Source: Eledone cirrhosa
Lineage: Eukaryota
Direction of reading: 5' to 3'
DNA length: 64,000 nucleotides
Assembly (NCBI GenBank): GCA_964016885.1
Contig: OZ024743.1
Span: 244,342,001-244,406,000 of the forward strand
Numbering within the stretch: the first letter of the stretch is position 1; every line of letters starts with the position of its first letter. Below, in pieces: positions 1 to 59,002 of the stretch. Under the pieces are notes generated by a model. It had not been told where the DNA came from. It saw only the letters and a program-made list of their open reading frames with translations, and made no database searches. Both the position numbers and the translations under genes were made by a program.

Positions 1-160
1 GCCCAGTCTGAGATTCGAATACACAATCGTGAGCCTCTAACCCTAACCAATAAGCCACACGTATTTACGTAAGCAAACAAACACACATACATACATACAT
101 ACATACATACATACATACATACATACATACATACATACATACATACATACATACATACAT

Positions 161-712
161 GGTGGCTGCAACTCGTTTTCGAGTACGGCCACTACTTTAT
201 ATCCATGTAGGAGAACGCCTACCGATGCGCTGAACGAGTGTGACTTTTAAGTCCAGCCAGCGACTTGAAATCTCTTGTACAAACACTACACTTGTGATAA
301 TTATTGACGCATAGTGCTGGGCCCATGATACCATGTGACGACAAGTGCAGAGAGATCTCCAGATATAAAGCAATGCCTGTGTCGTGAAGCTTTTATAGTG
401 AGCAAAGGCACTGCACAAAGCCAGTCCCACTCTCTTAACCAAGATGATATTTACCAAAAAGAAGAGCAAGTCAACATCATTGGATACCATCAGGGTTGCA
501 GGTGTTATATCAGAGTTTTCCTTCTCCTAGAATTCTGCCTTGACAAAGGCTAAGGGATCATCTCTCCCGGTGATTTTGGATGGCCATTGACTCTTAAGAG
601 CTCCTTTGCCCTTTGACAGGTTTTGTTTTTAGTCCTGCAGGATGTCCAAAGTCACCCTCCTCACCAAGAAACCTTGGTGGGGTTGCCAGTTTAGTCGCCA
701 ACGACCCGACCA
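161..712 (-). mobile_element. Non-autonomous RTE-related retroposon with (ATGT)n tail
   Basis: Minus strand carries CTAGGAGAAGGAAAACTCTGATATAACACC, which resembles a motif in RTE-clade 5' UTRs (from memory), and ends CGAGTTGCAGCCACC next to the (CATA)n tract at 86-160. A highly similar copy lies at 57123-57519 in the opposite orientation. Confidence 0.6.
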
Positions 713-9175: not shown

Positions 9176-9232
9176 TATATTTAAATATATATACATATAC
9201 ATATATATATATATAATAATAATAATAATAAT

Positions 9233-9413
9233 TGTTTCTACTATTGGCCAGCAATTATCCCAGTACATTACTGGTACTTTCTTTTATCGACCCCGTAAGG
9301 ATGAAAGGCAAAATTAACCTCGGCGGGATTTGAACTCAGAATGGCAAGGGCCGTAACTCTATGCGTCAAAGCATGGCGTCCGACCCTCTACCGATACTGC
9401 CAATTCACCGCCC
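9233..9413 (-). mobile_element. tRNA-derived SINE family A copy
   Basis: Minus strand has A box TGGCAGTATCGG, B box GTTCAAATCC, central TTTGCCTTTCATCCTTACGGGGTCGATAAA and an (ATT)n tail. Confidence 0.85.
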
Positions 9414-9429
9414 TATAATATAATAATAA

Positions 9430-9651
9430 TGATTTCATTTATTAGCCACCAGGGCCGACATGTAGGGGACAATACAAAGACAGGGACAGTGGGGGTTTAC
9501 AATAAGGTCGAGTAAAAGTGTACAAAGGCAGGACTAATTTAACAATGTAGATCTGAAAAATATAAAATAAACTATGCATAAATATAACAAAATAAATTCC
9601 GCGATAGGGGGTGGACGACCCTGGGGAGACTCAGGTACCCCACCAATCCTG
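9430..9651 (-). mobile_element. 5'-truncated 3' UTR of a Tx1-type LINE
   Basis: Homologous to 9669-9897 (GATTTCATTTATT-GCCAC-AGGGCCGACA...CTCAGGTACCCCACCAATCCTGA); (TAA)n on both sides. Confidence 0.85.
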
Positions 9652-9958
9652 ATAATAATAATAATAATGATTTCATTTATTGGCCACAAGGGCCGACATA
9701 TAGGGGACAATACAAAAGACTGGGGCAGTGGGGTCTTACAGAAAAATCGAGTAAACAATATGAATAACAATAAGACAGTAACAATAAAATTACAAGAAAA
9801 AATTCCCCAATAGGGGGGATGACCACCCAGGGTTCGCTAATTCCCCAATAGGGGGGATGACCACCCAGGGTTCGCTCAGGTACCCCACCAATCCTGAACG
9901 ACCCGACGCTTCGAGAGCACCCTGGAAGGGAACCCCTCTCCTCCTCAAATTTACCTAC

Positions 9959-11785
9959 CTACAGCCGCATGACCAGAGTAGGCCCACTCATACGGGCCAT
10001 TCTCGCCACATTCACCCATCTTTCAGCAAATGTAATGGGGGGGGGGCAGCACTTCTCTCTTCACACTCACCTTCCTTTCCAAGTGAAACTTGAAAAAGTT
10101 GATGAGGGATTGGCCGAAGAGAAAAGTGTCTGTCTTCAGTCCTTTCAACCTCGTCCACCATACAACCTCTTTCGCTACTGCCACCAGACAGAGGAAAATT
10201 GCCTGCCCTTCCTGGCCAAAAGAAGGCGGCGGGTCGATCTTCACTATGGACTCAGCCGATAGCCGGATCCGTTCTACACGCGATAACAGCTGTTCAACAT
10301 AACTCCATAAGTCAGTAATGCACGGACATTGGACGAGTGCGTGCAGAACGGTTTCGTCGCTCTGCGCGCAGCTCGGGCAGGTCCGTCTTACAGCACTTCC
10401 GTGCCTGTAGAGTTTATCTCGAACCGGCAGTGTCCCCCGGTAGCACTGCCAAGCGAGGGATTTTTGGAAATTATCCATCGTCCCCGGCTCGAAAGTCCTC
10501 CGGTACAGACTGGTTAGTTCGACTTCGTTGACTCCCAGAGCCTCTCCGAGTGCGTCGTCGCACTTGCCCACCCCTAATCCTCTGTAGAACTCGAGAGTGG
10601 AAGTTCCACTGACCGCATTTGCCTGCCTGGTAGAGGGCAGTGAGTGCCTGGCAACATTCCAGATGCCAGTCATCCAGTCTCGGTCTCTTCTTGACCCAAG
10701 ACTGCAGCTCAGTCAAAGAAACGAGCTGCGGAAAGGCCCGTCTGACAAACGGCGACCACACCTGTTCACTGTTTAGGCAGAATATCTGGAGATGCCTCAG
10801 CTTCAGCGCGTGCCTGCGCATCATTAGCCACGGCATGCCCAGCCCTCCACGTAGAGGGTGCTGGCAGCAGATGGACCGCCTCACCAGCGGAAACTGACCC
10901 CTCCACAAGAATTTGAAGAGGAGCCGCTCCAAGATGGCGAGGCGCGAACGGGGGCAAGGGACGACGGTCAGACGGTAGTAGATGACGGACGCGATGTACG
11001 CGTTCGCCACCTCCGCCCGACCTTTCAGTGATAGCTTCATCCCAGCCCATTTCTGGGTGAAACTGGCTACCCTGCCCGTCACCTCGTCCCAATTCTTATC
11101 CACCTGGAGGTCTGGCCCGAACCAAACCCCGAGCAACTTTACCGGTCCGTCGGTCCAGCGCCTAACGACGCTGTTGGACGGCATGGATTTGCCTCTCCAG
11201 GTGCCGAGTTGCAAGCCCACCGACTTTTCCGGGTTAAGTTTGCTCCCGTCAACCTTTCATATTCCTCCAATAAGTTGCCGACCACCTCGATTTCTGAGGT
11301 GTCCGACACCATCACGGTGATGTCGTCCGCATAAGCCGACACAGCCTTTCCGCGTCCCGGTTCGAGCGGGATGCCCTGCAACAGCTCCAGCTTCCACAGT
11401 AAAGGCTCGAGAGTCAATACGTACAGAATGGAGGAGAGAGGGCACCCTTGACGGACCGATCGGGATACCTGAAACGGTTCCGAGAGGTGGCCATTAATTT
11501 TGAACATCGAGCAGGTGCCGCTGTGCATTGCAGCGATCCAGCTTCTGAAAGCGGGGCCGAAGCCAGCCGCCTTGAGGACAGCCTCCAGGTACCGATGGTC
11601 GACCCAGATGCAAAGATCTGATAGTCGTCGAAAATGGGGGCTAGTGCGCGCGTGTCGGAAATCCTGGTCTCGCTGACGGCAATTACATCCATTTCTAGAG
11701 ACCTGAGGTCGTTGAGCAGGTGACCCTGCTTCCAGGACGATCCCAGGCTTCGAACATTTAAACATCCTACTCTTAATACGGCCAT
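9959..11785 (-). pseudogene. LINE ORF2 (APE endonuclease N-terminus fused by deletion to RT domains and C-terminus)
   Basis: MAVLRVGCLNVRSL...IAVSETR, then VDHRYL...VRQGCPLSSILYVLTLEPL...SAYADDITV, KLLGVWFG, LSLKGRAEV, GGLGMP, CPSCAQSDETVLHALVQC. Several frameshifts; ~1.6 kb is missing at ~11605 relative to the + strand element. Confidence 0.92.
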
Positions 11786-16648: not shown

Positions 16649-19600
16649 ATGATTCGATTGAGAGTTGGCTGTCTGAATGTGCGTGGCCTGGGCTCGGCTT
16701 GGAAGCAAGCTAAGCTTCAAAACGACCTCAGGTCACGCGGTGTAAATGTAATGGCGATTTGCGAGTCCCGGGTCAGCAGCGTACGACAGCTGGCCCCTAC
16801 CTTCGATGACTTTGAGATGCACGCATCTCTCTGTCAGCCCAGAGGTGGGGTTGTCGTACTGCTGCAGAAACATCTGGGTCTCGCCGCACAGATTGTTCAC
16901 TCGGACCCGGGAGGTCGATTGCTGGTGCTGGACGTTGACAGTAGTAAAGGCGAGGCCTTTAGGCTGGTGGCCGAGCGTCCCGACTTCTTCCGGCGCCTGG
17001 AGACTTTTAGTGGGGGACTGGAATGGTATCCTAGATGCACGTTGCGACTATGCAGGGGCATGTCCCGATAGAGGGGGCTGTCAAAGCCTCAAGGAGTTAC
17101 TCGGCCGATAGATTTCGACTAGATTGTCCGAATGCCCCAACCTGGACTTGGACCAACCGCACCGGACAATCTAGATCGTACCTAGATAGGATGCTAGTTA
17201 GAGTTAAGGATAGGGACCTAATACGTTGTCCAGATATGCTCATGGTTGACTATTCAGATCACAAACTAGTGACCTGTATAGTCAACCTTGATAGAACCCA
17301 TAGACAGGGACCCGGTTACTGGAAGCTCAACTTGTCCTTACTGCCAAAGGGAGCTTACAGGAACCGGATTAGTACTTTAGTTAAGGAACGGTTGAGGGTG
17401 CAGTCGTCAATAGCAGGTGGCGGGTATCTCTCAAGAGAGTGATTAGATTAGTGTCGATAGGTTATAGTAAGGAACTAGCCTCGGATAGGAATAGAAAGGA
17501 AAGGGAGTTGATAGCTAATGTAGAAGAGGCATTAAGGAGCGGAGACGTGGCCAAAGTGCTAGCGTCGAGAACGGCCTTGAGCCAGTTTTTCGACGCGAAG
17601 CACGAAGGCTGAGTCGTCCGAAGCAATATACGTGCGCTAGGAAACGAGGGGACCAAAGCTGTTAGCTGGGCCCGCGTGACAGAAGCCAAGAGTGGAATTA
17701 AATCCACCATCCGGTCTTTGCGAGACCAGGATGGACGGACGATCCTTGAACCTGAGCAGATATGTGAGGCCTGTCAGGGGTACTTCGCCCAATTGTTCGG
17801 GAGGGACGGGAGGCCGGACGGGGATGTGGATTTCGGTCCATACCTCGACGGTCTGCCGCGTCTTTCGGGCGAGGGGGCGAGGTCCTGTAAGGGGCCGATC
17901 TCGGCTGCTGAAATAGGGAGTGTGCTAAGCCTATGCGGCAAGCGCAAATTTCCAGGCCTCGGTGGTCTGCCCTACGAATCTATATTAGCATGCCGGGCTT
18001 GTTCTCCGGTCTCCTCGAGGCGGTCTACTGCAACTGGCAACAGAACGGGAGAATTCCCAGTTCTGTGACCAAGGGCGTAGTCACGCTGGTGAGGAAGGAC
18101 GAGAACAAGGGGGATGACATAGATAACTTCAGGCCCATAACTCTGCTAAACACAGAGTTAAAGATTTTGGCCAAGGTGTTAGCGAAGAGGTTGGCGCTTG
18201 TCGTCGGGAACCTGGTGGGAGAAGCTAGCAAAGAGGTTGGTGCTTGTCGTGAGCGGACTGGTAGGAGATGCGCAGACATGCGCTATCCCGTCCAGGTCCA
18301 TTCACGACAACCTCCACCTCATGTGATACATCATAGAGAGGGTTGGGAACGAACCCGGCTTTGGTGGGGCCCTGATCAACTTGGATCAGTCTAAGGCATT
18401 CGATAGGGTCGACCATGGTTACATGGATGCGGTGCTAGCGGCGGCTGGTTTCGGGCCCGTTTTCAGGGGCTGGATGGCTGCAATGCACAGCAGCAACACC
18501 TGCTCGAGGGTCAAGGGGAACGGCTACCTCTCGGAGCCGTTCCAAATCACGCGATCCATTCGACAGGGATGCCCTCTCTCCTCTCTCCTGTATGTGCTGG
18601 CTCTCGAGCCACTACTGCGGAAGCTGGAGCTGTTGCAGGGTATCCCCTTGGAACCGGGATTGCGGAAAGCGGTGTCGGCCTACGCCGATGACGTGACAAT
18701 AATGGTGTCGTGCACCTCGGCACCTTACTGGAGGAATATGAAAGGTTCACAGGAGCCAAGCTGAACCGGGACAAGTCCGTCGGTTTGCAACTCGGGACGT
18801 GGAGGGGCAAAACGATGCCCTCCGACGGCATCGTCGGACGCTGGACGGAGGGACCGGTGAAGCTGCTCGGGGTCTGGTTCGGACCGGACCTCCAGGTGGA
18901 GAAAAACTGGGACGAGGTAACGGGCAAGGTGTTTGCACTCGCCCAGAAGTGGGCCTAGTGCAAACTATCCCTGAAAGGTCGAGCGGAGGTGGCGAACGCT
19001 TATATAGCGTCCGTCATCTACTACCGCTTGACCGTCGTACCTTGCCCAGAGAAAACACTCGCTAAAATGGAGCGCGCGCTCTTCCGATTTCTTTGGAAGA
19101 AGCGGGCTCCTTTGGTGAGAAGATCCATCTGCTGTCAACACCCTTCGAACGGAGGGCTGGGGTTGCCGTGGCTGACGATGCGTAGACACGCATTAAGGCT
19201 ATGGCACCTCCAGGTATTCCTCACCGGTCAGCCGGTGTGGGCCCTGTTTGTGAGGCGAGCCTTTCCGAGACTCGTCTCACTCACCGAGCTGCAATCCTGG
19301 GTCAAGCAAAGACCTAGAAAAGTGGGCGACGGGCACATTGAATGTGCCCAAGCGCTCACGGCCCTCTGGCAAGCGGATCCGGCAATCAGTGGAGACTCAA
19401 CCTCAACATTCTATAGAGGGTTGGTGCGCAGTAAGTGCGACGACGCTCTCGGAGAGGCTCTGGGCATGGAGGAAGACGAGCTGGCCAGTCTGTTCGGTAG
19501 GACGTTTGGCCCGGGACCGATGGACAACTTCCAAAAGTCCCTGGCTTGGCAATGTTACCGAGGAGCTCTACCCGTTCGGGACAAGCTCTACAGACACGGG

Positions 19601-20047
19601 CGCCCGGGTAGGGACCCCTCGAAGAATATCTGTCCAAGATGCGTGCGTGATGAGGAAACCGTCGCACACGCATTCGTACACAGCCCGTGCGTTGCTGACC
19701 TGTGGGGCTATGTAGAACGACTACTGTCGCGGGTGGGACCAATCCGGTTGACCACCGAGAACATTGTCACGATCAAACCACCTCCCCCTTTCAAAAACGA
19801 AGGAGAGGCGGTTTTCCTCTGTGTGATAGCCATGGCGAAAGAAGTTGTATGGTGGACAAGGTTGAAAGGGCTGAGGTCAGACACCTTTCTCTCCGGCCAA
19901 CAACTGGTCTTTTTTTTCAAGTACCACTTTAGAAGAAGGATCAGAATGGAGAGAGAGGTGCTCTACCCCAGCAAGTTTTATGAAAGATGGGTGAAAGTAG
20001 CGAGAATGGCCCGAGTGAATGAGCCTTCTCTCTATATCAGCCTGTAG
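16649..20047 (+). pseudogene. LINE ORF2 (APE endonuclease + reverse transcriptase + C-terminal zinc-binding region)
   Basis: GCLNVRGL, GDWN, SYLDR, SDHK, GPGYWKLN, NFRPITLLNTELKILAK, DQSKAFDRVDH, RQGCPLS, AYADD, CPRC..DEETVAHAF; multiple frameshifts and stops. Confidence 0.95.
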
Positions 20048-21599
20048 GTGAGAGAGGAGAAGAATGAGAAGAGGAAGGAAGCACCCGCTCTTTGTGCTCC
20101 TGAAGAGGAGGGTTGCACATTTTTTCGGGGGTGTGTGCGACCCATGTCAACGCCCCTCCCTATTGAGGACATCGATTGTTAAATTTAATTTGTTATATGT
20201 TTTTTACACGTCTTTTTAAATGTATGTAAACTCCCCCCTTTGTATTTGTCCCAATCTTTGATGCCCTGGTGGCAAATAAATAGAAATATATATCAATAAA
20301 CATCAAACTCTCCCCCTCTCTATATCTACTACACGGAACTCTCTTCCAGTCTTCCTCTATATATCAATAAACACCAAACTCTCCCCTTCTCTACATCAAA
20401 CATAATTTTCTTTATATATATTAATAAAACATTATACAAAACAAAAAAAGTACACTACTAGAAATCCCATACGTTATAAAATAGGATGGGTCGGGGTCTC
20501 AATATCTAAACTAAACGACTACTTGTGATTTTTAGAAATCTACGGAGACATCCTAAAAAAATTATTTCAACCTCCCTATTATTTGAGACCTGAGAGTAAG
20601 CAAATTACAGTAATCAAATTGAATAGCAATAGTAAATGGGTTGATTTACTTCCCTTTTATCGGATTCTAACTTATAGTTTTGGCATTCTATTTCTCTATT
20701 TTGAACGCATTAAACTCGTCATACACAAACTGAGGTTAATTTTTGTTAAATTACTCAGGAATAAAACCATTCGATCTGACAAGATTATTAGGTAAAGGGC
20801 CTTAACCCCTGGTGGAGTCGTAGTAATACCGTCCCTAACACACGGCGTGCCTTGGGCATTTTGAATTTAACGGAGTTCGATCCTCTCCAGTTCGGAACAT
20901 AAGCGATTTCTTTCAGAGAAACAAAAGATAGAGGGGGGAAAGGAAAGAGGGGGAGCGAGAGAGAAAGAGAATCGACTCCAGCGTTGAATTGATACTTTAT
21001 TTATTGGCCTCGAAAGGATAAAAGTTGACCGCAAGCGAGATTTGAATTCAATGTGCAGTGAGCTGGAATATTGTTTTTATTTGATGCTCTAACGACTCTG
21101 ACAACTCGCCGCATTCGTAATCAGATTATTACTAATACATTATAGACACCGTAATTCTAGCTATCCCCATTAAATCAAATTTAGATACTTAAACAGATAA
21201 GAAACATTTAATTGTGAAGAGTTTCTACTATAACATTATCGTGTGAATTAAAAATATAAACCAAATAATGGATTCAAATTGATGTTGTTACACTTTCCGT
21301 GTCTGGATCTAGCAGGGTTGTTTAAGGTTGATGTAACAGACCCGTTGATCATACCTTTTGAACTTTGACTAGAGATAGGTGCTTCATATGAAACCCCACA
21401 GTCAGTAACTCTTTCGTTCTTTCTCACGTGTTAGATATAGTGGTGAAAGTGGGGGAATCATTGCATTAATAACTGAACGGAATACAGACCGTATTTTATC
21501 GGTAAACTACAATTTTTAACCTGTCACATTCAAGACGATCTAGGGAGCTGGGTTGGTGACAGCAAGGTTTTTGTCATTGTTGGTGGTTCACCTGACTGG

Positions 21600-24360: not shown

Positions 24361-25394
24361 TATATATATCAGAAGAGGAAGATCAGTGTGAGACTTGTGA
24401 GGTGATAAAGTACATTATCTTCTGATTGGAAACCTCGTCAGAGTGCCTGTAACAGAATATGTGACAAGTCTTCTTTTAGATACCAAATATATTCAATAGT
24501 GTTGGTGCATTCCATTGCAAAAATCCTCAAAAGATCAGATGATAGTTTTAAATGATTTGGCGGCTTAAGTCTTCCACCCAAGAACAGGAACGGTCTATAT
24601 GTCGGATTTAAATTGACCTGAGGTAATGAATCTTATGCAAAGTGCCGCGCAACTGTGTGGAGCCTAAATATATGTAGATGGGAGGTGACTTTCTTAACCG
24701 TACAGCCATTCTTGCACACCTCAGTAATTACTTGAACAGAGGTTTATGGTGGATTGGCAGTATAGGTAGAGCGTCAGCCAACATGTTTTTCGTTATATAG
24801 TTGCATCCCTTTACGTTCTGAATTCAAATCTCGCCGATGTAAACTTTGCCTTTCATTCTTACAAGGTCAATAAAATAAAGTACCAGTAACGCACTGGTTT
24901 CCATTTAATCGACTTTCCCAAAATTGCTTGCCTTGTGCCTATAAGTAGAAATTATTATTAGTAGTAGTTTGAAATTTAGGGAGGGGAAAATTCAATTATA
25001 TTGACCTCAGTATTTAACTGGAACTTTATTTTATCGACCCCGGAAGGATGAAAGGCAAAGTTGACCTCGCCGGGATTATTGGAATTCGCAGAAATGTCAG
25101 ATCGTCGGAAAAATGCTGTTTGTTCCCACCCTTTATGTTCAAATAGCGATATTAACTTTGAGTTTTATCCGTTCGAGGTCGATAAAAAGGAAGTACCGGT
25201 CAAGTACCTGCCACCTCTCACATTACTGACCATGTTATTATAGTTGTTGTCGTCGTTGTTGTTGTTGTTGTTTTTGTTGTTGTTGTTGTTGTTGTTGTTC
25301 TTCTTCTTCTTCTTCTTCTTCTTCTTCTTCTTCTTCTTCTTCTCCTCCTTCTCCTTCTTCTCCTCCTTTTCCACCTTCTTTTTCTTCTCTCAGG

Positions 25395-25588
25395 CCTGGT
25401 GGATTGGCAGTATCGGTAGAGGGTCGGATGCCATGCTTTGACGCATAGAGTTACGGCCCTTTCCATTCTGAGTTCAAATCCCGTCGAGGTTAACTTTGCC
25501 TTTCATCCTTACGGGGTCGATAAAATAAAGTACCAGTAATGCACTGGTTAAATTGCTGGCCTTGTGCCAAAAGTAGAAACAATTATTG
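25395..25588 (+). mobile_element. tRNA-derived SINE family A, representative copy (others ~5310-5415, 20970-21115, 24745-25215, 28960-29600, 30500-30880, 34590-35000, 38405-38600, 39330-39480, 42690-43040, 49765-49840, 54010-54118)
   Basis: A box TGGCAGTATCGG, B box GTTCAAATCC, core AACTTTGCCTTTCATCCTTACGGGGTCGATAAAATAAAGTACCAG, tail TGGCCTTGTGCCAAAAGTAGAAACAATTATT. Confidence 0.9.
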
Positions 25589-28587: not shown

Positions 28588-29809
28588 AGAGAGAGAGCGA
28601 GAGATTATATATATTCATTCCAACATCCTCTGTTTTCCAACAATTAATTACTATTAAAATTATTGGAAGTTCGCTTCATAATCATTAGGTCTCGGGTTCG
28701 ATCTTGGGCTATTCAACTTGTGCCATGTGCGTGGAATTGGTAGACGAAAGAACTGTACTTATATTTCAATATGTCACGCTGAATCTTCCTGAGAATTTCA
28801 TTACGGGGTACACGTGTCTATGGAATCCCCAGTCCCTTACACGTTAATTTCACGTGCAGGCTGTTTGTTCCATTGATCGAACAACTGGAACACTCATCGT
28901 CAAAACCGACGAAGGTCCGTTCCATTCCACTTTTACACTTGCTACACCTTTTTTGCGGTATTTGTTCCGGATTAACCCCGAAGTTGACATTGTCTTCCAT
29001 CGTTCCGGGGTCGCTAAAATAAAGTACTAGTCAAGTACTGAGGTCAATATAATTGAATCCCCTCTTCTTTCCCCTCCCTTCCAAACTACTGGGTTTGTGC
29101 CTCAATTTCAAACTCTATTACTACTAATAATAATAATGGACTCTGTCTTAGGCACAAGGCCAGCAATTTTGGGTGAGGAGGGGGGGGGGTCGATTAAATC
29201 GATCACCGTACATTACTGGTACTTTATTTTATCCACCTCGTATGTATGAAAGTTAAAGCTAACCTCAGAGGGATTTGAACTCAGAACGTAAAAGGCTGTA
29301 ACTCTATGCCGTAAAGCATGTTGACCGACGTTCTACCAATTCTGCCAATCAACCACCCAAACTACTACTACTAATAATGGTTTCTTTATTAGCAACATTA
29401 AGTAAACAATAAAAACGGCACATGACGATACAGGGTAGATTTTTATGCGCATAAAAAGTTTGTAACATCAATTAAAAAATATAGAAATAAACATTGATTT
29501 CTAATTTAGGCACAAGGCCAGTAATTTGGGAGGAATAGGGGAGTCGGTTATTATCGACCCCAGTGCATGACTGGTATTTTGTTTTATTGGTCATGCAAGG
29601 GTGAATGGAAAAGTTTTGTTGTTTGTTTTTTTTGTTTTTTTTTAAGGAACTTTATCCACTACGCTAGAAGCACGGACAATCTAATAATAATAAATATAAT
29701 TATAGAAGAAGAAGAAGAAGAAGAAGAAGAAGAAGAAGGGGATCTTTCTAAAAAAAAAAAGCTTATTGCAACTTATAAGCTGAATACCGATTGCTATCAT
29801 ATATGTGTG

Positions 29810-30364: not shown

Positions 30365-30498
30365 TAAATTTGTTCAGGTGTGATGCACGTTTCACGATTG
30401 ATGAGCTCACGGTACGATCCGCGGATACCTCCCGTTATTAAGGAAACTACGAGTCGTACCTTGAGCTGATCAATCGCGCCACCTGAATAAATGTAATA
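30365..30498. mobile_element. Foldback/MITE-like palindromic element
   Basis: Arms TTCAGGTG..CGATTGATGAGCTCACGGTACGA / TCGTACCTTGAGCTGATCAATCG..CACCTGAA; a single related arm lies at 14040-14095. Confidence 0.65.
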
Positions 30499-31062
30499 AT
30501 TATTTCTACTTTTGGCACAAGGCAAGCAAATACCCAGTGTATTACTGGTACTTTATTTTATCGACCCCGTAAAGATGAAAGGCAAAGTTAACCTCGGCGG
30601 GATGATAGTTTGACACCACGAGCCCTTAACGTATGTTGGAACCCTCGTGGTTCTGGTCCGTCACGGTTACTTTAACTTAACGGAGCACAGCTGATTATTT
30701 GCAGAGAGAAATTAAGAGAGATGTAATGAACAGAGAAGTAATAAAGAATGGACCTGGTACTTTAGTTATCGACCCCAGGAAAATAAAAAGCAAAGTCGAC
30801 ATCAGTAAGATTTGAACTCAGACCGGGAATAAATACCACAAAGCATTCTAGCCAACGTTCTAATTATTTGCCACCTTTATAAACATATATACACCCACTT
30901 ACATAAATTTACTAAGACAGAAAGATAGTATAAACACACGCACACTTGTATCAATTGGCATACATAGCATCTTCCATTCATGTTCTGGTACTTCTATAAA
31001 ACTTTTTGGCGAAATAATTTCTTTATGTATACATACACACATACATACACACATACATACAC

Positions 31063-34543: not shown

Positions 34544-35789
34544 GTAAGTCAATTATTATCCTTATTATTTTGCATTCTTTGTTCTAACTTATTACATTGT
34601 GTTCAAATCCCGCCGAGGTTAACTTTACCTTTCATCCTTACGGGGTCGATAGAATAAAGTACCAGAAACGCATTGGGTCGATTTAATCGACTTTCCCCTC
34701 CCCAAAATTGTTGGCCTGATGCTTAAATCAGAAACCATTGTTATTTTGCCGATCTGTTTACGCTGTCTTCAAATAATACTAAAACCAACTTAACCTTTCA
34801 TCCTTCAATGATTGATAAAATAAAGTTCTAGTCACCTTATATCAGTCAATATAATCAACTGTTCTGTCCTCCACTCCAGCTTCTTACCTTGTTTTTATGT
34901 GAGAAAAATTAGTCGTATAATTGTCAATATTTTGTGCATCTTTTTGTTTTACGTTCTGAGTTCAAATACAGCCGAGGTCAACTTTGCCGTCTTTTCTCCA
35001 GGGGGTAGTTCTATTTGGCGCTGTGTCAAAATATGACTCCTTATCCCACCTATGTAAAAAAAAAAAAAGTTATTTGTAGCATTATCTGGGTAGCAGTTGG
35101 TAGAATCGGTAGAGCGTTGGACCAAATGTCTTGAGATATAGCTTAGGTGCCTATATTAGCTTCCGTGTTCAAATCGTTGCTGATATAGTAAATGGCTTTA
35201 ACTTAATTATTTTTCAAATCTAAGTTTTGAACCAGGACATTTACAACTCTGCAAAAAAATTTCATCTCACCTCACTTCCCTCCAAAAAAAATTGATTTTC
35301 TTTAGTTTTATTTTTAAATATGAAATTATGGGTCAGCAAGAAAAACAATTCTTTTTCGACGTCTCAAGTACTAAGTTCGATCCTGTCATCAAAATGTATT
35401 CCCCTGTATCTACATTAAGGGAGCGATTGACAAGATGGGTAGAGCACAATGTGGTCGATTGTCAGAATCGGTAGAGTACTTAGTATAAAATGCCTTGCTA
35501 TATTTACTTAAGCCTAATCACCTTTAAATACCGAGTTCGAACCCTGCTGAGACCAATTGTCAGTCGACAAGATAAAGTACCAGTGATATATTTGTATCGA
35601 TTCATTTAACTACATACCGGCTCCTCATGAATGGGCTTGTACTTCAGAATTATTGTTTATAAGCAGTTGTCGTTCAGACCCAGGTCAGTTCTAATCGAAA
35701 GTGTTCCAGCCGTGACTATCCCATCTTTTGTTTTCAGATTACATTTTAGGACATCATTATTCATTATTTCTTGTATTTTTTTCCCCGAA

Positions 35790-45429: not shown

Positions 45430-48269
45430 TGTAAAAGGTAAACAGAAATAACAACACAATCGGTACAGTATATGGAAGGGATATATTAGGTTAGCGCTTG
45501 ATATAGCAGGAAGAGGGTCTTAACGTTTCGGACGCTAGTCCTTCATCAGAAGAAAGAATGAGAAATAAGATAGATTGAGGGGACGGGCGGGATGGTATTG
45601 GAAAAAAATGTCTTTAGATAAAAATAACAGGTCCATTCATGTTGACATCTCTTGGAAAACTGTTAGTGCTGGCGTTTTGTGTATGATTTATTTTTTTAGA
45701 AAAGTGGATGATGGAAAAAAAAACCGTTTTGTAAAAAGAGCTATACTTGTGCACGTGCGTATAATAACACACAAGTATGTGTGTTATTATACGTCCGTGC
45801 GAAGCTAAAAAGAAAGGTGTGTGAATATGTGAGTAAAAGAGTGTGTGTGCATGTAAGTACGAAGCTATGAGCAAAAGTATGTTAATATAAGGGTGTGTAT
45901 GTATACAGAGCAGTGAAGGGAAAAGTGGAGTGAGCATATATAGTCGTCATGTATTAGTTGTAAGAGAAGTTTCTAATGATCAAGAAAAAGCGATAGGAAT
46001 CTAGGGGTGTGAAAAGGACGGAGTATTAGAGAAATTGGGGAGGTGAGTTGAGTTTAAGGGGGAAATAGGGCCCAAGGCGGTGAATCAGACTTTGTTCAGT
46101 CCTGGTGCGCGAGGCCTGTGATCCATGATGTAAAAGGACACCCAGGACTGAAACATGTAGGGAAGAATGACTAGAAGAACAGAAATGATGGGCGACAGGA
46201 GTATCCAAACAGAGTCGTATGTCCCTCAAATGTTCGGCAAAACGGTCCGCCATACGGCGTTCCGTTTGTCCGATATATAAAGACCCGCAAAGGGAACACC
46301 GGAGGGTGGATATGCAGGTGAAGGAATGGCGGATACGGAAAGACCCGTTAGGGCCTGTAAGAGTGGAAATAAAGGGACAAGTGAGGGTGGAAATAAAGGG
46401 ACAAGTGTTGGAACGGGAACAAGGATGAGAGACGGCTGGAGTCGTGGGAGAGGACGAAAAGGAACTGCGAACCAGGGCGCGCTTAAAAGCAGTCATGGGT
46501 GGGTTTGGAAAAAAGCGAGAAGTGACGGGGTCAGAAGAGAGGATACGGAAGGAAACGGAGGATATGTCGCCGGAGTGGTAGGGTGATGGGGTGGTAGGTG
46601 AGAGGGAAAGGAACACAGGTGTTAGGAGGGCGGGGGGTGAGGTGAGAGGGCTGTGGTGCGGTCTGTTTCACGGGCGCGGGTGAGAGGGGGGATATCCACA
46701 CTGGATGAAGCAGGAAGCCATGCGAAGGGAATGGGTTTCGAAATCGTCGTCCTGGCTACAGAGTCGACGAAAACGGAGGAATTGGGAATAGGGTATGGAG
46801 TGTTTGGTGTGGGTTGGATGGGAGGAGGTGAAGTCGAGATAAGATTGGGAGTCTGTTGGTTTAATGAAGATGGAAGTAGAGAGGGTGTGATGAGAGTGAT
46901 AAATAGATAGAGAGATATCTAGAAATGCGACAGAAGAATCGGAGACGGAGGCGGTGAAATTGAGAGCAGGTTGGAAAGATTGGACAAAAGAAAGAAAACA
47001 GTCGAGCTGTTTTCGTGATAGAGAGGTGGCGCCGATACAGTCGTCGATATAACGACCGTATAGCTCTGGAGTCGGTCCAGTGCACTAGGAGAAGATCTGG
47101 GCTTCGACGTAGCCAACAAACAAGTTGGCATAGTTTGGACCTATTCTGGTTCCCATCGCTACCCCAGAGACCTGCTGATAAAATTCACCCGAAAAAGAAA
47201 ATCCATTAAGGGTGAGAACAAGCTCAGCCAGACGGAGAAAAGTGGTAGTGCTGGGGTAAGGGGTAGGGTGTAAATCTAAAAATTGTTGGAGAGCGCGGAG
47301 ACCGTCATCATGAGGGATGACGGTATAGAGAGAGGTCACATATCCAGGGTAAAGAGAAGGCGCGTGTGACCAGGAGGGAAGGAGAAAGAGTTGAAGAGTC
47401 TTAGGGCAAGATTTGTATCGTGGATGTGGGGTGAGATTGCCGACCAACGGGGCGAGGATGGTGTCTAAATATTCAGAAATTATCTCGGTGGGGCAGTTGC
47501 ACGCAGATAGGACGGCCGGGATTATTTTGTTTGTGTATTTTGGGGAGGAAGTAGATGGTGGGTGTGCGAGGGGTGCGTACAATAAGGTTGGCGGCTGGAG
47601 GGGGGGGGGGTATCCACGAGTGGGGTCGGGGGATAAAGGGCGGTAAAAAGGGGTATTGTGAAGCTGGCGGAGAGCCTCAGCCCTATAGAGGTCAGCGCCA
47701 CCTTTGTCAGCGGGTTTGATGACAATGTCATCTCGACGCCGAAGGTTGCGAAGAACGGAGAACCCAGTCCGCGTGGTGTTAGAGCGACGAGAATGCTGGT
47801 GGAAATGGAACCGATTCACAGTACGCCGGCAAGTATCGACAAAGGAGTCGAGGGTGCTGAACTGGCCAGAGCTCGGCGTTCAATGTGATTGCCGGTGACT
47901 GAGAGGAGTGAAGTCATCCGTCTGTGTCCATGATGGCGTGTCGTGAAAAGAAGCTTTCAGCTTTAATCGACGGAAGAACCCTTCAATCTCGGCACGTGTG
48001 AGGAACTCGTCGCAGGTAGATGTGGTTGGTATAAAACGCAAACCACGGGTGAGGAGGGTGCGCTCAGCTTCGGAGAGTAGTAGGTCCTGGGGTATGGTGA
48101 CTACAGTGCAGCGACGTGAGGGAATGAAAGAGGCGGAGGGCTCAAGGGGTTTGGGCAAAAGCGTGTGCAGATTCAGTGGTGGGGAGCGGAAAGGGGGTTG
48201 GAGGTGATATGAGTATAGGTGGTGACGGCAGGCGGGGAGCAGAGAGAGTCGAGTTTGTGGTTTTTTACG

Positions 48270-49890: not shown

Positions 49891-50332
49891 AACCAAAGAT
49901 TAATATGATTTATTGGTTACTCAATGAATATAGTTTTATAATAGATTAAAAGCACTCTACAATGAAGTTTTCTGGAGTTATTAATATTATTCAGAATATT
50001 AATAAATGAAGACATTCACATAATCAAAATATATGTTTTATTATATATATTTCGAAGGTACTGTGCTGTTTTTTCAGTACGTCCTCGTCAGATAAAATAC
50101 ATGAATTGATGTATGACATACCTCAACGGTCTTGATGGTTCAATTCCAATGACTGCCAATACTGGAATTGAACCATCAAGACCGTTGAGGTATGTCATAC
50201 ATCAATTCATGTATTTTATCTGACGAGGACGTACTGAAAAAACAGCACAGTACATTCGAAATATATATAATAAAACATATATTTTGATTATGTGAATGTC
50301 TTCATTTATTAATATTCTGAATAATATTAATA
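49891..50332. mobile_element. Head-to-head inverted hammerhead cassette (inverted pLTR-like)
   Basis: 170-bp arms 49979-50148 / 50163-50332 with one mismatch and a 14-nt loop; (TA)n at both ends. Confidence 0.88.
50214..50275 (+). ncRNA. Type I hammerhead ribozyme (mirror copy 50036-50097 on -)
   Basis: TTTTAT-CTGACGA-GGACGTACTG..CAGTACATTC-GAAA-TATATA-TA-ATAAAA. Confidence 0.85.
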
Positions 50333-50974
50333 TATATATAAAGTTGTCAAATAGCTTTCCTGGGTTTGTCACAACTACGAACACTATATGAACTACTATA
50401 TCATCATCATCATCATTATCATCATCATCACCGGTTAACGTCCATTTTTTCCACGCTAGCATGAGTTAGACGAGTTATCCTGTTGTGTGAAATACCAGGT
50501 CAGGTAACCACGTGTTGCTCATGCAGGACTGATTTGGGTTTGGTTCTTACAGCTGGATGCCCTTCCTAACGCCAACAGTGGATTCATTTACTGTTGGCTA
50601 GGCCGAGAGGTGGAAGAGAAAAAAAGCAGTGGGACAATTGTATAGCAGACGAGCGTCGAATTTGTAAAACAAGGATATTTATAAGATCCATCACAATGGT
50701 CAGTTGACCATCAAGCTCTGGGGGATCATAATTCGATACGTTGCATGCAAGATTGTTTAGATCATCAATGGCTGTTTAGCATAGTGGTTAGAGCAGTCAG
50801 CAGGTATTGAGAGATATGAAGTTCGATTCCTGGTAGCTGTCGCTGTCACCTTTTCCCGTCTATATGGGTATTTTACCCGATTTTATAAGCTATTATTTTT
50901 AGCAACCAACTGCGTTTCCTGCTTTAATCTCTCGCTCTCATTTTTTTTCTCATGTATATATGTATACATATACA

Positions 50975-51288
50975 CCCCGTTCTATGTAAAGTTATGTTGG
51001 TGCCGCGCCATCCAGGCCGAAACAAATGAGATCGTGTAGGTGTCACGACAAAAAAACACACAGTCCACGCTGTAATGTGGCCGTGTAGGCAACACGGTAA
51101 AAACCTCCCAGACCCACACTGTAAATGTGGTTGGTGTTAGGAAGGGCATCCAACTGTAGAAAACCTGCCAGACAGTCCTATGCGAGCAAGACAATCACTC
51201 TTGCCTCAAGTGGGACTACCCCCGTCCAAACCCATGCAAGCATCGAACACGGACGTTAAACGTTGATGATGATGATGATGATGATGAT
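50975..51288 (+). mobile_element. SINE-like element family D with (GAT)n tail
   Basis: TTAGGAAGGGCATCCAACTGTAGAAA core and GGACGTTAAACG(TGA)n tail; related copies at 42050-42325 and 50400-50580. Confidence 0.75.
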
Positions 51289-52064: not shown

Positions 52065-52816
52065 CATCATCATCATCATCATCAACGTTTAACGTGTTCC
52101 ACGCTTGCATGGGTTTGGACGGGGGTAGTCCCACTTGAGGCAAGAGTGATTGTCTTGCTCGCATAGGACTGTCAGGCGGGTTTTCTACAGTTGGATGCCC
52201 TTCCTAACACCAACCACATTTACAGTGTGGGGCTGGGAGGTTTTTACCGTGTTGCCTACACGGCCACATTACAGCGTGGACTGTGTGGCGGGTTTTCTAC
52301 AGTTGGATGCCCTTCCTAACACCAACCACATTTACACTGTGGGTCTGGGAGGTTTTTACCGTGTTGCCTACACGGCCACATTACAGCGTGGACTGTCTGG
52401 CGGGTTTTCTACAGCTGGATGCCCTTCCTAACACCAACCACATTTACACTGTGGGTCTGGGAGGTTTTTACCGTGTTGCCTACACGGCCACATTACAGCG
52501 TGGACTGTCTGGCGGGTTTTCTACAGCTGGATGCCCTTCCTAACACCAACCACATTTACACTGTGGGTCTGGGAGGTTTTTACCGTGTTGCCTACACGGC
52601 CACATTACAGCGTGGACTGTCTGGCGGGTTTTCTACAGCTGGATGCCCTTCCTAACACCAACCACATTTACACTGTGGGTCTGGGAGGTTTTTACCGTGT
52701 TGCCTACACGGCCACATTACAGCGTGGACTGTGTGTTTTTTTGTCGTGACACCTACACGATCTCATTTGTTTCGGCCTGGATGGTGTGGCACCAACATAA
52801 CTTTACATAGAAGGGG
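52065..52816 (-). mobile_element. Inverted near-identical copy of 50975-51288 with an internal 112-bp unit amplified five times
   Basis: Units start at 52175, 52287, 52399, 52511 and 52623. Confidence 0.9.
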
Positions 52817-53932: not shown

Positions 53933-54514
53933 CATATATACATATAGCGGAGGAGAAGGTACATGAGGTAATTAGAAATGGAAGAAGAGTAATAATAATA
54001 ATCTATAATTAATTGTTTCTACTTTAGGCACAAGGCCAGCAATTACTCAGTACATTACTGGTACTTTATTTTATCGACCCCGTAAGGATGAAAGGCAAAG
54101 TCAACCTCGGCGGGATTTGTAATTAATAGTGTATAATAAGGCATGGGGAAGATTACACTATAATAAGGTGTAAAGGTAAGAATAAGGTAAAATATAAAGG
54201 AGGATAAAAGTGGAAATAATACTAAAGATAAAAAATATATATAGAGAATATATAAGGAAATATAAGCGAATATTTGGAGGGGAAAACACAATGTAAAAAA
54301 ACCGATTTTTTTCAAACAATAATAAAAAATAATAAAAGTAATAAAAAATATAATAATTATGGGGGGAGAAAACAGGATAGAGAAATATGATCAAGTGTGA
54401 TTCGTTGAGAGAATATAGGATGATAACAGTTGAGTCCAGTTTATACATCTTAATAATAAATAATAAACAATATGTGTATCAGAGTTGCAGAACCTTCAAT
54501 TCACTTACGGGTTC

Positions 54515-56967: not shown

Positions 56968-57122
56968 GTATATATATATGTATGTATATACATGTATATA
57001 TGTATATATATATATGTATGTATATATATATGTATGTATATACATGTATATATGCATTTATATATGTATATATGACTATACATATGTATGTATATATGTA
57101 TGTATATACATGTATATATACC

Positions 57123-57519
57123 CCTTAGCCTTTGTCAAGGCAGAATTCTAGGAGAAGGAAAACTCTGATATAACACCTGCAACCTTGATGGTATCCAATG
57201 ATGTTGACTTGTTCTTCTTTTTGGTAAATATCATCTTGGTTAAGAGAGTGTGACTGGCTTTGTGCAGTGCCTTTGCTCACTATAAAAGCTTTACGGCACA
57301 GGCATTGCTTTATTTCTGGAGATCTCTCTGCACTTGTCGTCACATGGTACCATGAGCCCAGCACTATGTCTCAGTAATTGTCACAAGTGTAGTGTTTGTA
57401 CCAGAGTGTTCAAGTCGCTGGCTGGACTAAAAAGTCACACTTGTTCAGCGCATCAGTAGGGGTTCTCCTACATGGATATAAAGTAGTGGCCGTACTCGAA
57501 AACGAGTTGGCAGCCACCA
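57123..57519 (+). mobile_element. Second copy (5'-truncated) of the RTE-related element at 161-712
   Basis: Reverse complement of ~161-556; embedded in (TATG)n. Confidence 0.8.
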
Positions 57520-57942
57520 TATACATGTATATATGACTATACATATGTATGTATATATGTTTAATATATATATGTATATATGCATATATATATGTATATA
57601 TATATATGTATGTATATATGTATATATATATATATGTATGTATATATGCATATATATATATGTATATATATATGTATGTATATATGCATATATATATGTA
57701 TATATATATGTATGTATATATGTATATATATATGTATGTATATATGCATATATATATGTCTATATATGCATATATATATATGTATGTATATATGTATAAT
57801 GTATATATGTATGTATATATGTATAATATATATATGTATATATGCATGTATATATGTATGCATATATATATATATATATGTATATATGCATATATATATG
57901 TATATATGCATATATTGAAAACTTGACTGTCACCACTGAATA

Positions 57943-57981: not shown

Positions 57982-58070
57982 ATTAACATTTAACATTTAA
58001 TATTCTACTGTAAATAAAACGAGTAAATCAGAAAAAGCTGGAATTCCTTTTATTAATATATATATATATA

Positions 58071-58905
58071 TGCAAAAGTTTTATTTAAGATTGTTGGGTT
58101 ACAACGAGTAAATATTTTATAACTGATATAAAAGCACTCAACAGTTTCTAGAGTAGGTTTACGATATTAAACAAATGGAAACTATATTTATAAAACCATA
58201 TTTATTTCGTTATATATATTTCTGGGATATCATATTAAAAATATGGTATGCCTTCCTCAGACAAAATACAATACATAAGCTGTTTTATAAATAATTAGTG
58301 ACATACCTTGTGATAATGCAACTTCCATTTAAAAAGTTGATTTGGTAGTGAAACTGTTATGACAGTTATATAGAAAGAAAAACGAAGATGAGAAGAAGAA
58401 GATGAAGAGATGTATGTAAATAAAAAAAGAAGATGAAGAGATGTATGTAAATAAAAAAAGAAGATGAAGAGATGTATGTAAAGAAAAACAACGGAGCGAG
58501 ACAGAGAGACAAGGAGAGAGAGAAACACATTGAGGAGGTGAAAAATATAGTAGGCTGCTTTTGGACAGATGATCATCGTATATGTGAGAGGTTAAGGGAA
58601 GGGATACAGTTAAACTAGTGTATAGGAGAAAAAGAAAGAAATATATTAAAAATATATTATGTCTCATCCATTTGAATTATCAATTTTTATGAATTAGGTA
58701 TTATAATGTAAATATCAGTATTCATGAATGAGACACATATCCATAATTGCATTATTACAAGGTATGCCACTAATTATTTATAAAACAGCTTATGTATTGT
58801 ATTTTGTCTGAGGAAGGCATACCATATTTTTAATATGATATCCCAGAAATATATATAACGAAATAAATATGGTTTTATAAATATAGTTTCCATTTGTTTA
58901 ATATC

Positions 58906-58908
<3 letters not shown>
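58071..58908. mobile_element. Second head-to-head inverted hammerhead cassette
   Basis: 162-bp arms 58160-58321 / 58747-58908 (about two mismatches); 425-bp spacer with a 30-bp tandem repeat; (TA)n at both ends. Confidence 0.85.
58800..58865 (+). ncRNA. Type I hammerhead ribozyme (mirror copy 58203-58268 on -)
   Basis: TATTTTGT-CTGAGGA-AGGCATACCATAT..ATATGATATCCCA-GAAA-TATATA-TA-ACGAAATA. Confidence 0.75.

Positions 58909-59002
<94 letters not shown>

What the first reader, a model, noticed from the sequence alone, without database searches (positions are those of the whole stretch)
58071..58908. Second inverted hammerhead cassette with the same geometry (89-nt tail) from a diverged sister family
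Seen: 162-bp arms, 425-bp spacer, TA tracts at both ends. It shares with the 50 kb cassette GGTATG(T/C)CA upstream, GTATTTT(A/G)T-CTGA-GA, GAAATATATATAA, and a tail containing GGTTAC...AAAAGCACTC, but otherwise differs. In both, the inverted copy stops 88-89 nt short of the long copy's 3' end. Inference: a fixed offset in two independent insertions points to a programmed step (defined template boundary or second-strand priming site) rather than random truncation. The palindromic TATATA loop 3 mimics the (TA)n target and could serve dimerisation or target annealing.
Basis: partly seen in the sequence, partly recalled or inferred. Interest (0 to 1): 0.75.

Follow-up and report, generated by a model that had tools for sequence, protein, structure and literature searches.

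The report
Two-ended Hydra-type Penelope retrotransposon insertion
This cassette is a truncated, back-to-back insertion of a known kind of jumping gene (a Hydra-type Penelope retrotransposon), and because almost every such insertion has one long and one short end, each just before a small conserved hairpin motif, the element's RNA is likely copied into both sides of a cut TA repeat from two fixed starting points.

Summary
The geometry is real. The cassette is the 3' end of a Hydra-clade Penelope-like element (PLE); an intact 741-aa parent ORF exists in the genome. The '425-bp spacer' is element sequence.

The offset is fixed. In a position-ordered sample, 103 of 108 arm ends fall at two sites, and 40 of 43 head-to-head pairs have one long and one short end. 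Either arm can be the longer, some pairs share no sequence, and both arms carry the same subfamily haplotype. This favours two first-strand starts on one source over second-strand fold-back.

The 50-kb cassette is a sister family, but its family tail is 92 nt, not 88. Each end lies 5-9 nt before one copy of a twin bulged-hairpin motif. Loop 3 is conserved as a palindrome, not as a TA mimic, and is practically never a junction.

Inverted copy plus one-sided tail, tail as two RT start sites, and dimer-type hammerheads are published. The strict pairing and twin hairpin were not found in my literature searches, but this scan reported them earlier on other DNA of this genome.

The parts
58056..58071 (.). 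left (TA)n target run
   Evidence: sequence
58072..58747 (-). long-ended arm: 5'-truncated Hydra-clade PLE copy, element positions -672 to 0
   Evidence: 91.5% match to parent copy L062
58072..58159 (-). 88-nt tail, the interval between the two terminal sites
58132..58154 (-). bulged-hairpin motif 1 (ACTC-YAG-loop-CTG-TT-GAGT-GCTT), starting 5 nt after the short-end site; this copy has a U-G wobble where most copies have C-G
58203..58268 (-). type I hammerhead motif with palindromic helix/loop III ATATATAT; predicted cut between 58211 and 58210; A opposite A at 10.1/11.1
   Evidence: pattern scan; activity untested
58322..58746 (-). the 'spacer': element 3' UTR/pLTR sequence present only on the long arm, with a 31-bp internal repeat
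58347..58352 (-). initiator-like TTCACT; its A (58349, element -277) lies in the cluster of inner arm ends; inferred transcription start
   Evidence: Inr-like TCACT in pLTRs noted in PMC3846280
58747..58908 (+). short-ended (tail-less) arm, element positions -249 to -88, abutting the long arm head-to-head with 1 nt overlap
58800..58865 (+). second hammerhead motif copy, pointing outward
58907..58998 (.). right (TA)n target run (first TA shared with the element)
   Evidence: sequence
49892..50150 (-). sister family A cassette: long-ended arm with hammerhead 50034-50099, motif 1 at 49950-49978 and 92-nt tail 49892-49983
50151..50332 (+). sister family A cassette: short-ended arm starting at the A of the family's TCACT (50152), preceded by a G (50151) where the element has C; hammerhead 50212-50277

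Best explanation
The cassette is a 5'-truncated, head-to-head insertion of a Hydra-clade Penelope-like retrotransposon in a (TA)n run, likely made by target-primed reverse transcription from both DNA ends of the break, starting at two fixed internal sites of one source RNA. Shown: parent element, two discrete end sites, one-long-plus-one-short pairing, shared haplotype of the arms, and a twin motif RCTC-stem-TN-GAGY-GCTT lying 5-9 nt downstream of each end in both families. Inferred: the element protein (a dimer is predicted for a relative in PMC11167929) nicks both strands of (TA)n; each RT subunit is positioned by one hairpin and starts a few bases upstream of it; the two cDNAs grow toward each other, stop at random points or at the transcript's 5' start, and are joined with a few bases of overlap or filler. 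The tail is then simply the distance between the two start sites. The hammerhead is inferred to set neither end.
For: Parent: tandem 3707-bp unit and intact 741-aa ORF L263:4088-6313 with the Hydra motifs. End sites: in a chr-1 sample ordered by position and selected on the hammerhead core upstream of both ends (98 of the first 100 of 1095 hits fetched), 108 arm ends = 54 short (53 at -88/-89, one sister-family fragment at -92), 49 long (+4 to +9, including TA overlap), 3 tandem read-throughs, 2 other of which one is a locus edge; 30 TA dinucleotides are available between -150 and +40. Pairs: 40 of 43 long+short, 1 long+long, 0 short+short, 2 with a cut partner; 40 or more of 41 has p=1.9e-11 under independent 50:50 choice. 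Family A: 20 of 23 pairs clearly long+short. Independence of arms: short-ended arm reaches further 5' in 20 of 40, long-ended in 13, equal in 7 (four of the 40 are cut by locus edges); L160 has arms -49..+6 and -206..-88 with no overlap. One source: over 42 pairs, lineage variants concordant 86 (shuffled 23+-6), discordant 7 (shuffled 115+-12), 0 of 2000 shuffles as extreme; private changes in both arms 4 columns, in one arm 67, so later gene conversion is rare. Twin motif: occurs exactly twice in the 3.7-kb unit, at -82 and +10 (shuffles: mean 0.026, two or more in 1 of 1000); both copies present in family A and motif 1 in a third family; outer pair A-U in copy 1 and G-C in copy 2, inner stem CAG/CUG, CAA/UUG, CAG/UUG. 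Inner ends: 26 of 101 fall in -290..-255 against 6 and 4 in the neighbouring 36-nt windows; in family A 20 of 63 antisense reads leave the template exactly at the A of TCACT, 12 followed by C, of which 5 can be read as the start of the next piece. In vitro precedent: a Poseidon PLE nicks and extends both strands and starts RT at two internal sites that bound the tail (PMC11167929).
Against: No biochemical or RNA data here. Motif 2 lies beyond the long end, so only tandem or circular templates carry it, yet 53 of 101 arms run past the inferred start site and many of these have long ends. The distance from end to motif is not identical (5-7 nt short end B, 3-9 long end B, 8 long end A), and TA overlaps blur it. 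One long+long pair (L209; arms share about 200 nt of identical interrupted microsatellite flank) and one short+short pair in family A (L181) break the rule. Same-haplotype arms could also come from two RNAs if one source was active at a time; 2 of 42 pairs (L085, L091) differ at a lineage variant. In PMC11167929 start-site use did not differ between top and bottom strand, which does not by itself predict strict long+short pairing. The isolated motif and hammerhead regions do not fold significantly better than shuffles (z 0.20, -2.04, -1.05, 0.17).
Confidence: 0.72

Rival explanations
1. Only the short end is set by an RNA signal (hairpin 1). The long end is inherited: transcripts read through a source copy's long end into its (TA)n flank and the nicked target anneals to that (UA)n run. 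Short cassettes could then spread as SINE-like units without motif 2.
For: Many long-ended arms extend far upstream, where a simple two-copy source has no motif 2 at its 3' end. Family A terminal long ends read GGT-T in 42 of 48 while tandem internal junctions read GGT-C in 10 of 10. L209 carries the same flank on both arms.
Against: Motif 2 is kept with a compensatory outer pair in both families, 8-9 nt after homologous long ends. 83 distinct long-end flanks show no clear transduction; the 5 flank-sharing pairs look like insertions beside other repeat families (my reading). 6 of 48 family A ends do carry the internal C.
Confidence: 0.14
2. Both ends are fixed at the DNA level: the endonuclease cuts a transposition intermediate at an internal TA site 88 nt from the end (the 'EN-mediated resolution' suggested in PMC8557442), and the motif is a DNA recognition signal.
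For: Both sites sit on TA overlaps. PMC11167929 cites that the D. virilis endonuclease needs the tail for cleavage.
Against: Non-overlapping arms (L160) and longer short-ended arms are not products of trimming one cDNA. G-U wobbles and compensatory pairs fit a single-stranded structure. In PMC11167929 tail boundaries coincide with RT starts.
Confidence: 0.09
3. The first cDNA folds back or primes a second strand that copies itself and stops 88 nt short of the start.
For: Arms share haplotype; junction palindromes occur.
Against: It requires the inverted arm to be contained in the tailed arm; the opposite holds in 20 of 40 pairs, and L160 has no overlap.
Confidence: 0.03
4. Hammerhead cleavage or loop-3 annealing to (TA)n defines the boundaries.
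For: Loop 3 is ATATATAT in both window families.
Against: The predicted cut is 51 and 139 nt upstream of the two ends in this cassette (coordinates). Loop 3 joins (TA)n once genome-wide. A TA-targeted relative has ATGCGCAT and published TA-targeted Hydra elements have non-TA helix III. This family has A opposite A at 10.1/11.1 yet has 1095 exact core copies. HHR mutants did not affect insertion in vitro (PMC11167929).
Confidence: 0.02

Closest known systems
Hydra clade of C-terminal-endonuclease Penelope-like elements (Craig et al. 2021, PMC8557442; e.g. Hydra-1_Obim, Penelope-13_HM)
   Same: Single ORF with RW(K/R), DKT, CxCx5C linker, CxxC and CxH around the EN E and N; hammerhead near the 3' end; (TA)n targets; Penelope-13_HM has a 5'-truncated inverted copy with an antisense hammerhead. 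By eye the ORF shares long motif runs with Hydra-1_Obim.
   Different: Unit is 3.7 kb against 'generally <3 kb'; RWR instead of RWK; helix III is an 8-nt even palindrome; 10.1/11.1 is A-A in this family; not the same family as Hydra-1_Obim (different hammerhead and N-terminus).
Canonical PLE insertion structure: inverted 5'-truncated copy plus one-sided 30-40-bp tail (PMC8557442 Fig. 2 legend; PMC3846280)
   Same: Head-to-head arms, tail at one end only.
   Different: Tail is 86-92 nt, two to three times the published size; pairing shown here to be near-obligate and either arm can be the longer.
PAc Poseidon element of Anolis carolinensis (Frangieh et al. 2024, PMC11167929)
   Same: Tail corresponds to the stretch between two internal start sites near the pLTR-ORF junction; AT-rich targets; hammerhead apparently not needed for insertion.
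   Different: Here both sites lie upstream of the ATG (long end 49 nt before it), not 111-118 nt into the ORF; each is followed by a repeated hairpin motif; the evidence here is genomic only.
Minimal/dimer-type PLE hammerheads (Cervera and de la Pena 2014, PMC4209133)
   Same: Type I, palindromic helix/loop III, opposite-strand pairs 100-700 bp apart already reported in Schistosoma.
   Different: Family B lacks the usually conserved G10.1-C11.1 pair; activity untested.
L1 twin priming (recalled, not read here)
   Same: Both target ends prime on one RNA source, giving a 5' inversion.
   Different: Here the second start is a fixed site and the arms usually overlap in sequence.

Membership tests
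Hydra-clade PLE | Single ORF with RT and C-terminal GIY-YIG-type EN | tested here: met
   Intact 741-aa ORF L263:4088-6313 with YRDD and a C-terminal IIY...YVG...KLRYNNH stretch; read from the sequence, since Pfam gave no hit
Hydra-clade PLE | RWK motif, DKG changed to DKT | tested here: met
   IRWRAF (R for K) and SDKTNN; definition
Hydra-clade PLE | CxCx5C linker; CxxC and CxH around EN E and N; no CCHH | tested here: met
   CNCRDRSKC, CDLCAEE, LRTNLFSCCRH; no cysteine pair seen by eye inside the GIY-YIG core
Hydra-clade PLE | Hammerhead motif in the pLTR | tested here: met
   Core, stems I-III found; 10.1/11.1 pair non-canonical in family B; not detected by Rfam
Hydra-clade PLE | (TA)n insertion preference | tested here: met
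   Terminal arms run into (TA)n throughout; 36 of 83 long-end flanks have 30 or more nt of pure AT repeat
Hydra-clade PLE | Generally short (<3 kb) | tested here: not met
   Unit 3707 bp, owing to a 1.4-kb non-coding part; a tendency in the paper, not a diagnostic
Hydra-clade PLE | Phylogenetic placement of RT with Hydra references | not tested
   Reference sequences were seen only in a supplement and compared by eye; no tree built
Canonical PLE insertion structure | Inverted 5'-truncated copy and tail at one end | tested here: met
   40 of 43 pairs; 20 of 23 in family A
Canonical PLE insertion structure | Tail of 30-40 bp | tested here: not met
   88, 92 and about 86 nt
Active hammerhead ribozyme | Self-cleavage as monomer or dimer | not testable with these tools
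   Needs an in vitro assay
Non-autonomous retrozyme | Tandem 150-400-nt hammerhead repeats without ORF (definition recalled) | tested here: not met
   The sequence is the 3' end of an ORF-bearing 3.7-kb element
MITE / DNA transposon | Fixed symmetrical terminal inverted repeats and constant length (definition recalled) | tested here: not met
   Ends are asymmetric and inner ends range from -163 to -3706

The most novel reading that the evidence does not exclude
Hydra-type PLEs integrate by obligate two-ended priming: a dimeric RT-endonuclease holds one RNA at two repeated bulged hairpins, and each subunit starts cDNA 5-9 nt upstream of its own hairpin on an opposite end of the cut, the leading cDNA displacing the other. 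This would make the PLE tail and inverted structure the footprint of an RNA-programmed double-start mechanism distinct from LINE TPRT, and would explain why only tandem copies (which carry both hairpins) are sources.
Probability: 0.45. Interest if true: 0.75.

Novelty: new member of a known kind. Interest (0 to 1): 0.42.

Why it matters
How PLEs make their inverted, tailed insertions is stated as open in PMC8557442, and only one element has been reconstituted in vitro (PMC11167929). This young family has an intact ORF, over a thousand near-identical copies, two single-base-defined ends and a candidate 20-nt cis signal, so it gives a direct test. The cassette itself is one ordinary copy of about a thousand, most of the architecture is published, and the scan has reported the same rule on other DNA of this genome.

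Tried and rejected
Rfam at gathering threshold: no hit in the window. Pfam on the ORF: no hit. The repeat finder was swamped by (TA)n. Folding z-scores of hammerhead and tail regions were mostly not significant. Sequencing-run search: no RNA holder listed; no reads were laid, so expression and the start site remain untested. The genome-wide count of short ends (2702, against 773 continuing) was rejected as a clean ratio: four apparent short+short pairs from it proved long+short, because a sister subfamily's tail begins with TATA. The short-end first-base tally used a faulty filter and is not used. Homologue search gave 52 relatives at 28-43% identity, only two named and uninformatively so. Text search of the supplements of PMC11167929 for 'tail' and 'inverted' found nothing; its figures are not held. 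Supplements of the bioRxiv retrozyme preprint could not be seen and may bear on novelty. Rejected readings: MITE, foreign spacer, fixed 89-nt ruler, fold-back, loop-3 priming.

Full report
Observation. The arms (58160-58321, 58747-58908; 162 bp; 98.8%), the 425 bp between them and the flanking (TA)n runs are as described. The 50-kb cassette has the same layout and all listed shared motifs, and the two align over hammerhead and tail. Coordinates below are relative to the long end (0 = 58072). The host is an unnamed 3.0-Gb genome; I did not identify it.

What it is. Near-identical copies are abundant (40 of 1456 candidates scored, 99-100%; 1095 exact copies of a 36-nt core). Extending 20 copies gave a 3707-bp tandem unit and intact ORFs of 741-742 aa. 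The protein has the features listed for the Hydra clade in PMC8557442 section 11: RWR, DKT, CxCx5C, CxxC and CxH. The window cassette is a long arm -672..+6 abutting an inverted arm -249..-88, so the spacer is element sequence. The 50-kb cassette belongs to a sister family A with 998 exact core copies, whose ORF is 51% identical at the N-terminus and 55-60% in the best RT stretches, lower (29-49%) elsewhere.

Is the offset fixed? Yes. I took the first 100 listed core hits on contig C1, a set chosen on sequence upstream of both ends, and fetched loci for 98 of them less one single hit not fetched apart from these (the last pair and last single, 3 hits, were left out, so 97 of 100). Of 108 arm ends, 54 are short (53 at -88/-89), 49 long, 3 read through into the next ORF, 2 are other. 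Of 43 head-to-head pairs, 40 are long+short, 1 long+long, none short+short, 2 have a cut partner. Family A, 51 loci filtered to arms of 86% identity or more: 64 ends; 23 pairs, of which 14 long+short, 6 more with a variant long end, 1 doubtful, 1 short+short, 1 with a truncated partner. The tail is 88 nt in B, 92 in A, and about 86 in a third family seen in flanks (counted by eye). The ends fall at homologous positions, so they are defined by sites and not by a ruler.

How the two arms relate. The short-ended arm reaches further 5' in 20 of 40 pairs, and L160 has arms with no sequence in common; copying back along the first cDNA cannot give these. The arms carry the same lineage variants (86 concordant, 7 discordant; shuffled 23 and 115), while private changes are nearly all in one arm (67 against 4 columns), so the match dates from insertion and not from later conversion. 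One active source at a time would give the same result with two RNAs. Inner ends usually abut within a few bases, and cluster at -290..-255 (26 of 101) at an initiator-like TCACT; in family A 20 of 63 reads stop exactly at its A and 12 of these continue with C where the template gives G, 5 of the 12 being explicable by the next piece. I infer run-off at a capped start; no RNA data test it.

What marks the sites. An earlier scan note (e1-8837782) suggested twin hairpins, and I tested it. The motif RCTC-stem-TN-GAGY-GCTT occurs twice in the unit, at -82 and +10. Both copies exist in family A at homologous places and copy 1 in the third family. The outer pair is A-U in copy 1 and G-C in copy 2, and the inner stem of copy 1 varies while pairing; the inner stem of copy 2 is only 1-2 bp. 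Motif spacing is 92 (B) and 95 (A, counted), tracking tails of 88 and 92. A similar GCTC-stem-TT-GAGC stretch is visible at the 3' end of the consensus printed before Hydra-1_Obim in the PMC8557442 supplement (header not shown). That the motif positions RT is inference.

The hammerhead. Core and stems are present on both arms, with compensatory changes in stem I between A and B. Family B has A opposite A at 10.1/11.1; sister subfamilies have T or C at 11.1 (my sample was selected on A). The predicted cut matches neither end. Loop 3 offers 8-9 nt of match to (TA)n yet joins it once genome-wide (patterns differ in length, so the 1 to 1095 ratio is rough). Loop 3 reads ATATATAT, ATATGTAT or ATGCGCAT in TA-targeted relatives, and published TA-targeted Hydra elements have non-TA helix III. 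Self-complementarity is conserved, TA content is not, which fits dimer folding as proposed in PMC4209133.

Results against my reading. One long+long pair (L209) has about 200 nt of identical flank on both arms, either a later inverted duplication or priming in a read-through flank. One short+short pair occurs in A. Over half of arms pass the inferred start, needing multi-unit, circular or read-through templates. Folding scores are weak. These keep the inherited-long-end rival alive.

Literature seen. PMC11167929: parts 1-2 of 4 of the text and a blank supplement text search. PMC8557442: passages, section 11, supplement passages and part 2. PMC3846280: passages. PMC4209133: parts 1-2 of 4. bioRxiv 10.64898/2026.07.22.740005: passages. 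PMC13282606: passages. Five searches listed no paper that, from title, abstract start or the passages read, reports strict long+short pairing, shared arm haplotypes or a twin hairpin; the library omits most subscription papers. L1 twin priming is recalled.

Verdict. A real, programmed feature; a new family of a known clade with a known architecture and an unusually long tail. The genomic rules sharpen a published in vitro result into a testable two-ended model, already reached by this scan on other DNA of the same genome. Interest 0.42.

Noticed in passing
window 58223-58253 and family B copies: Hammerhead stem II closes with A opposite A at 10.1/11.1 in the youngest family, while sister subfamilies have T or C at 11.1; may be a weakened ribozyme that still spread.
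   Followed up: partly
L032:2640-3040, L039:575-1000, L252: Third family with the same long+short layout, about 86-nt tail, motif 1, and loop 3 ATGCGCAT.
   Followed up: partly
L209 (G000:C1:85478500-85485600): Long+long insertion whose two arms run into about 200 nt of identical interrupted microsatellite in inverted orientation.
   Followed up: partly
L016, L135, L162: Different TA-targeted families sit nested in each other's (TA)n flanks.
   Followed up: no
L237-L239, L266 (contig C10): Three copies with the same flank and a short deletion in the tail, probably a segmental duplication.
   Followed up: no
window 47088-47879 (-): 264-codon open frame containing IVIKPADKGG, resembling the DKG motif of canonical PLEs; likely a remnant of another PLE clade.
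   Followed up: no
window 9957-11605 and 18406-20049: Two 1.6-kb regions 73% identical in opposite orientation with long open frames that look like LINE reverse-transcriptase remnants (label recalled).
   Followed up: no
window 52166-52735 and 50952-51178: 112-bp tandem repeat of about five units with a dispersed inverted relative.
   Followed up: no
window 87-556 and 57122-57597: 476-bp 92% inverted match 57 kb apart.
   Followed up: no
window 9218-9449, 24747-25587, 29129-29396, 30486-30606, 34592-34745, 54010-54124: Dispersed 70-200-bp SINE-like repeat family, many copies in the window.
   Followed up: no
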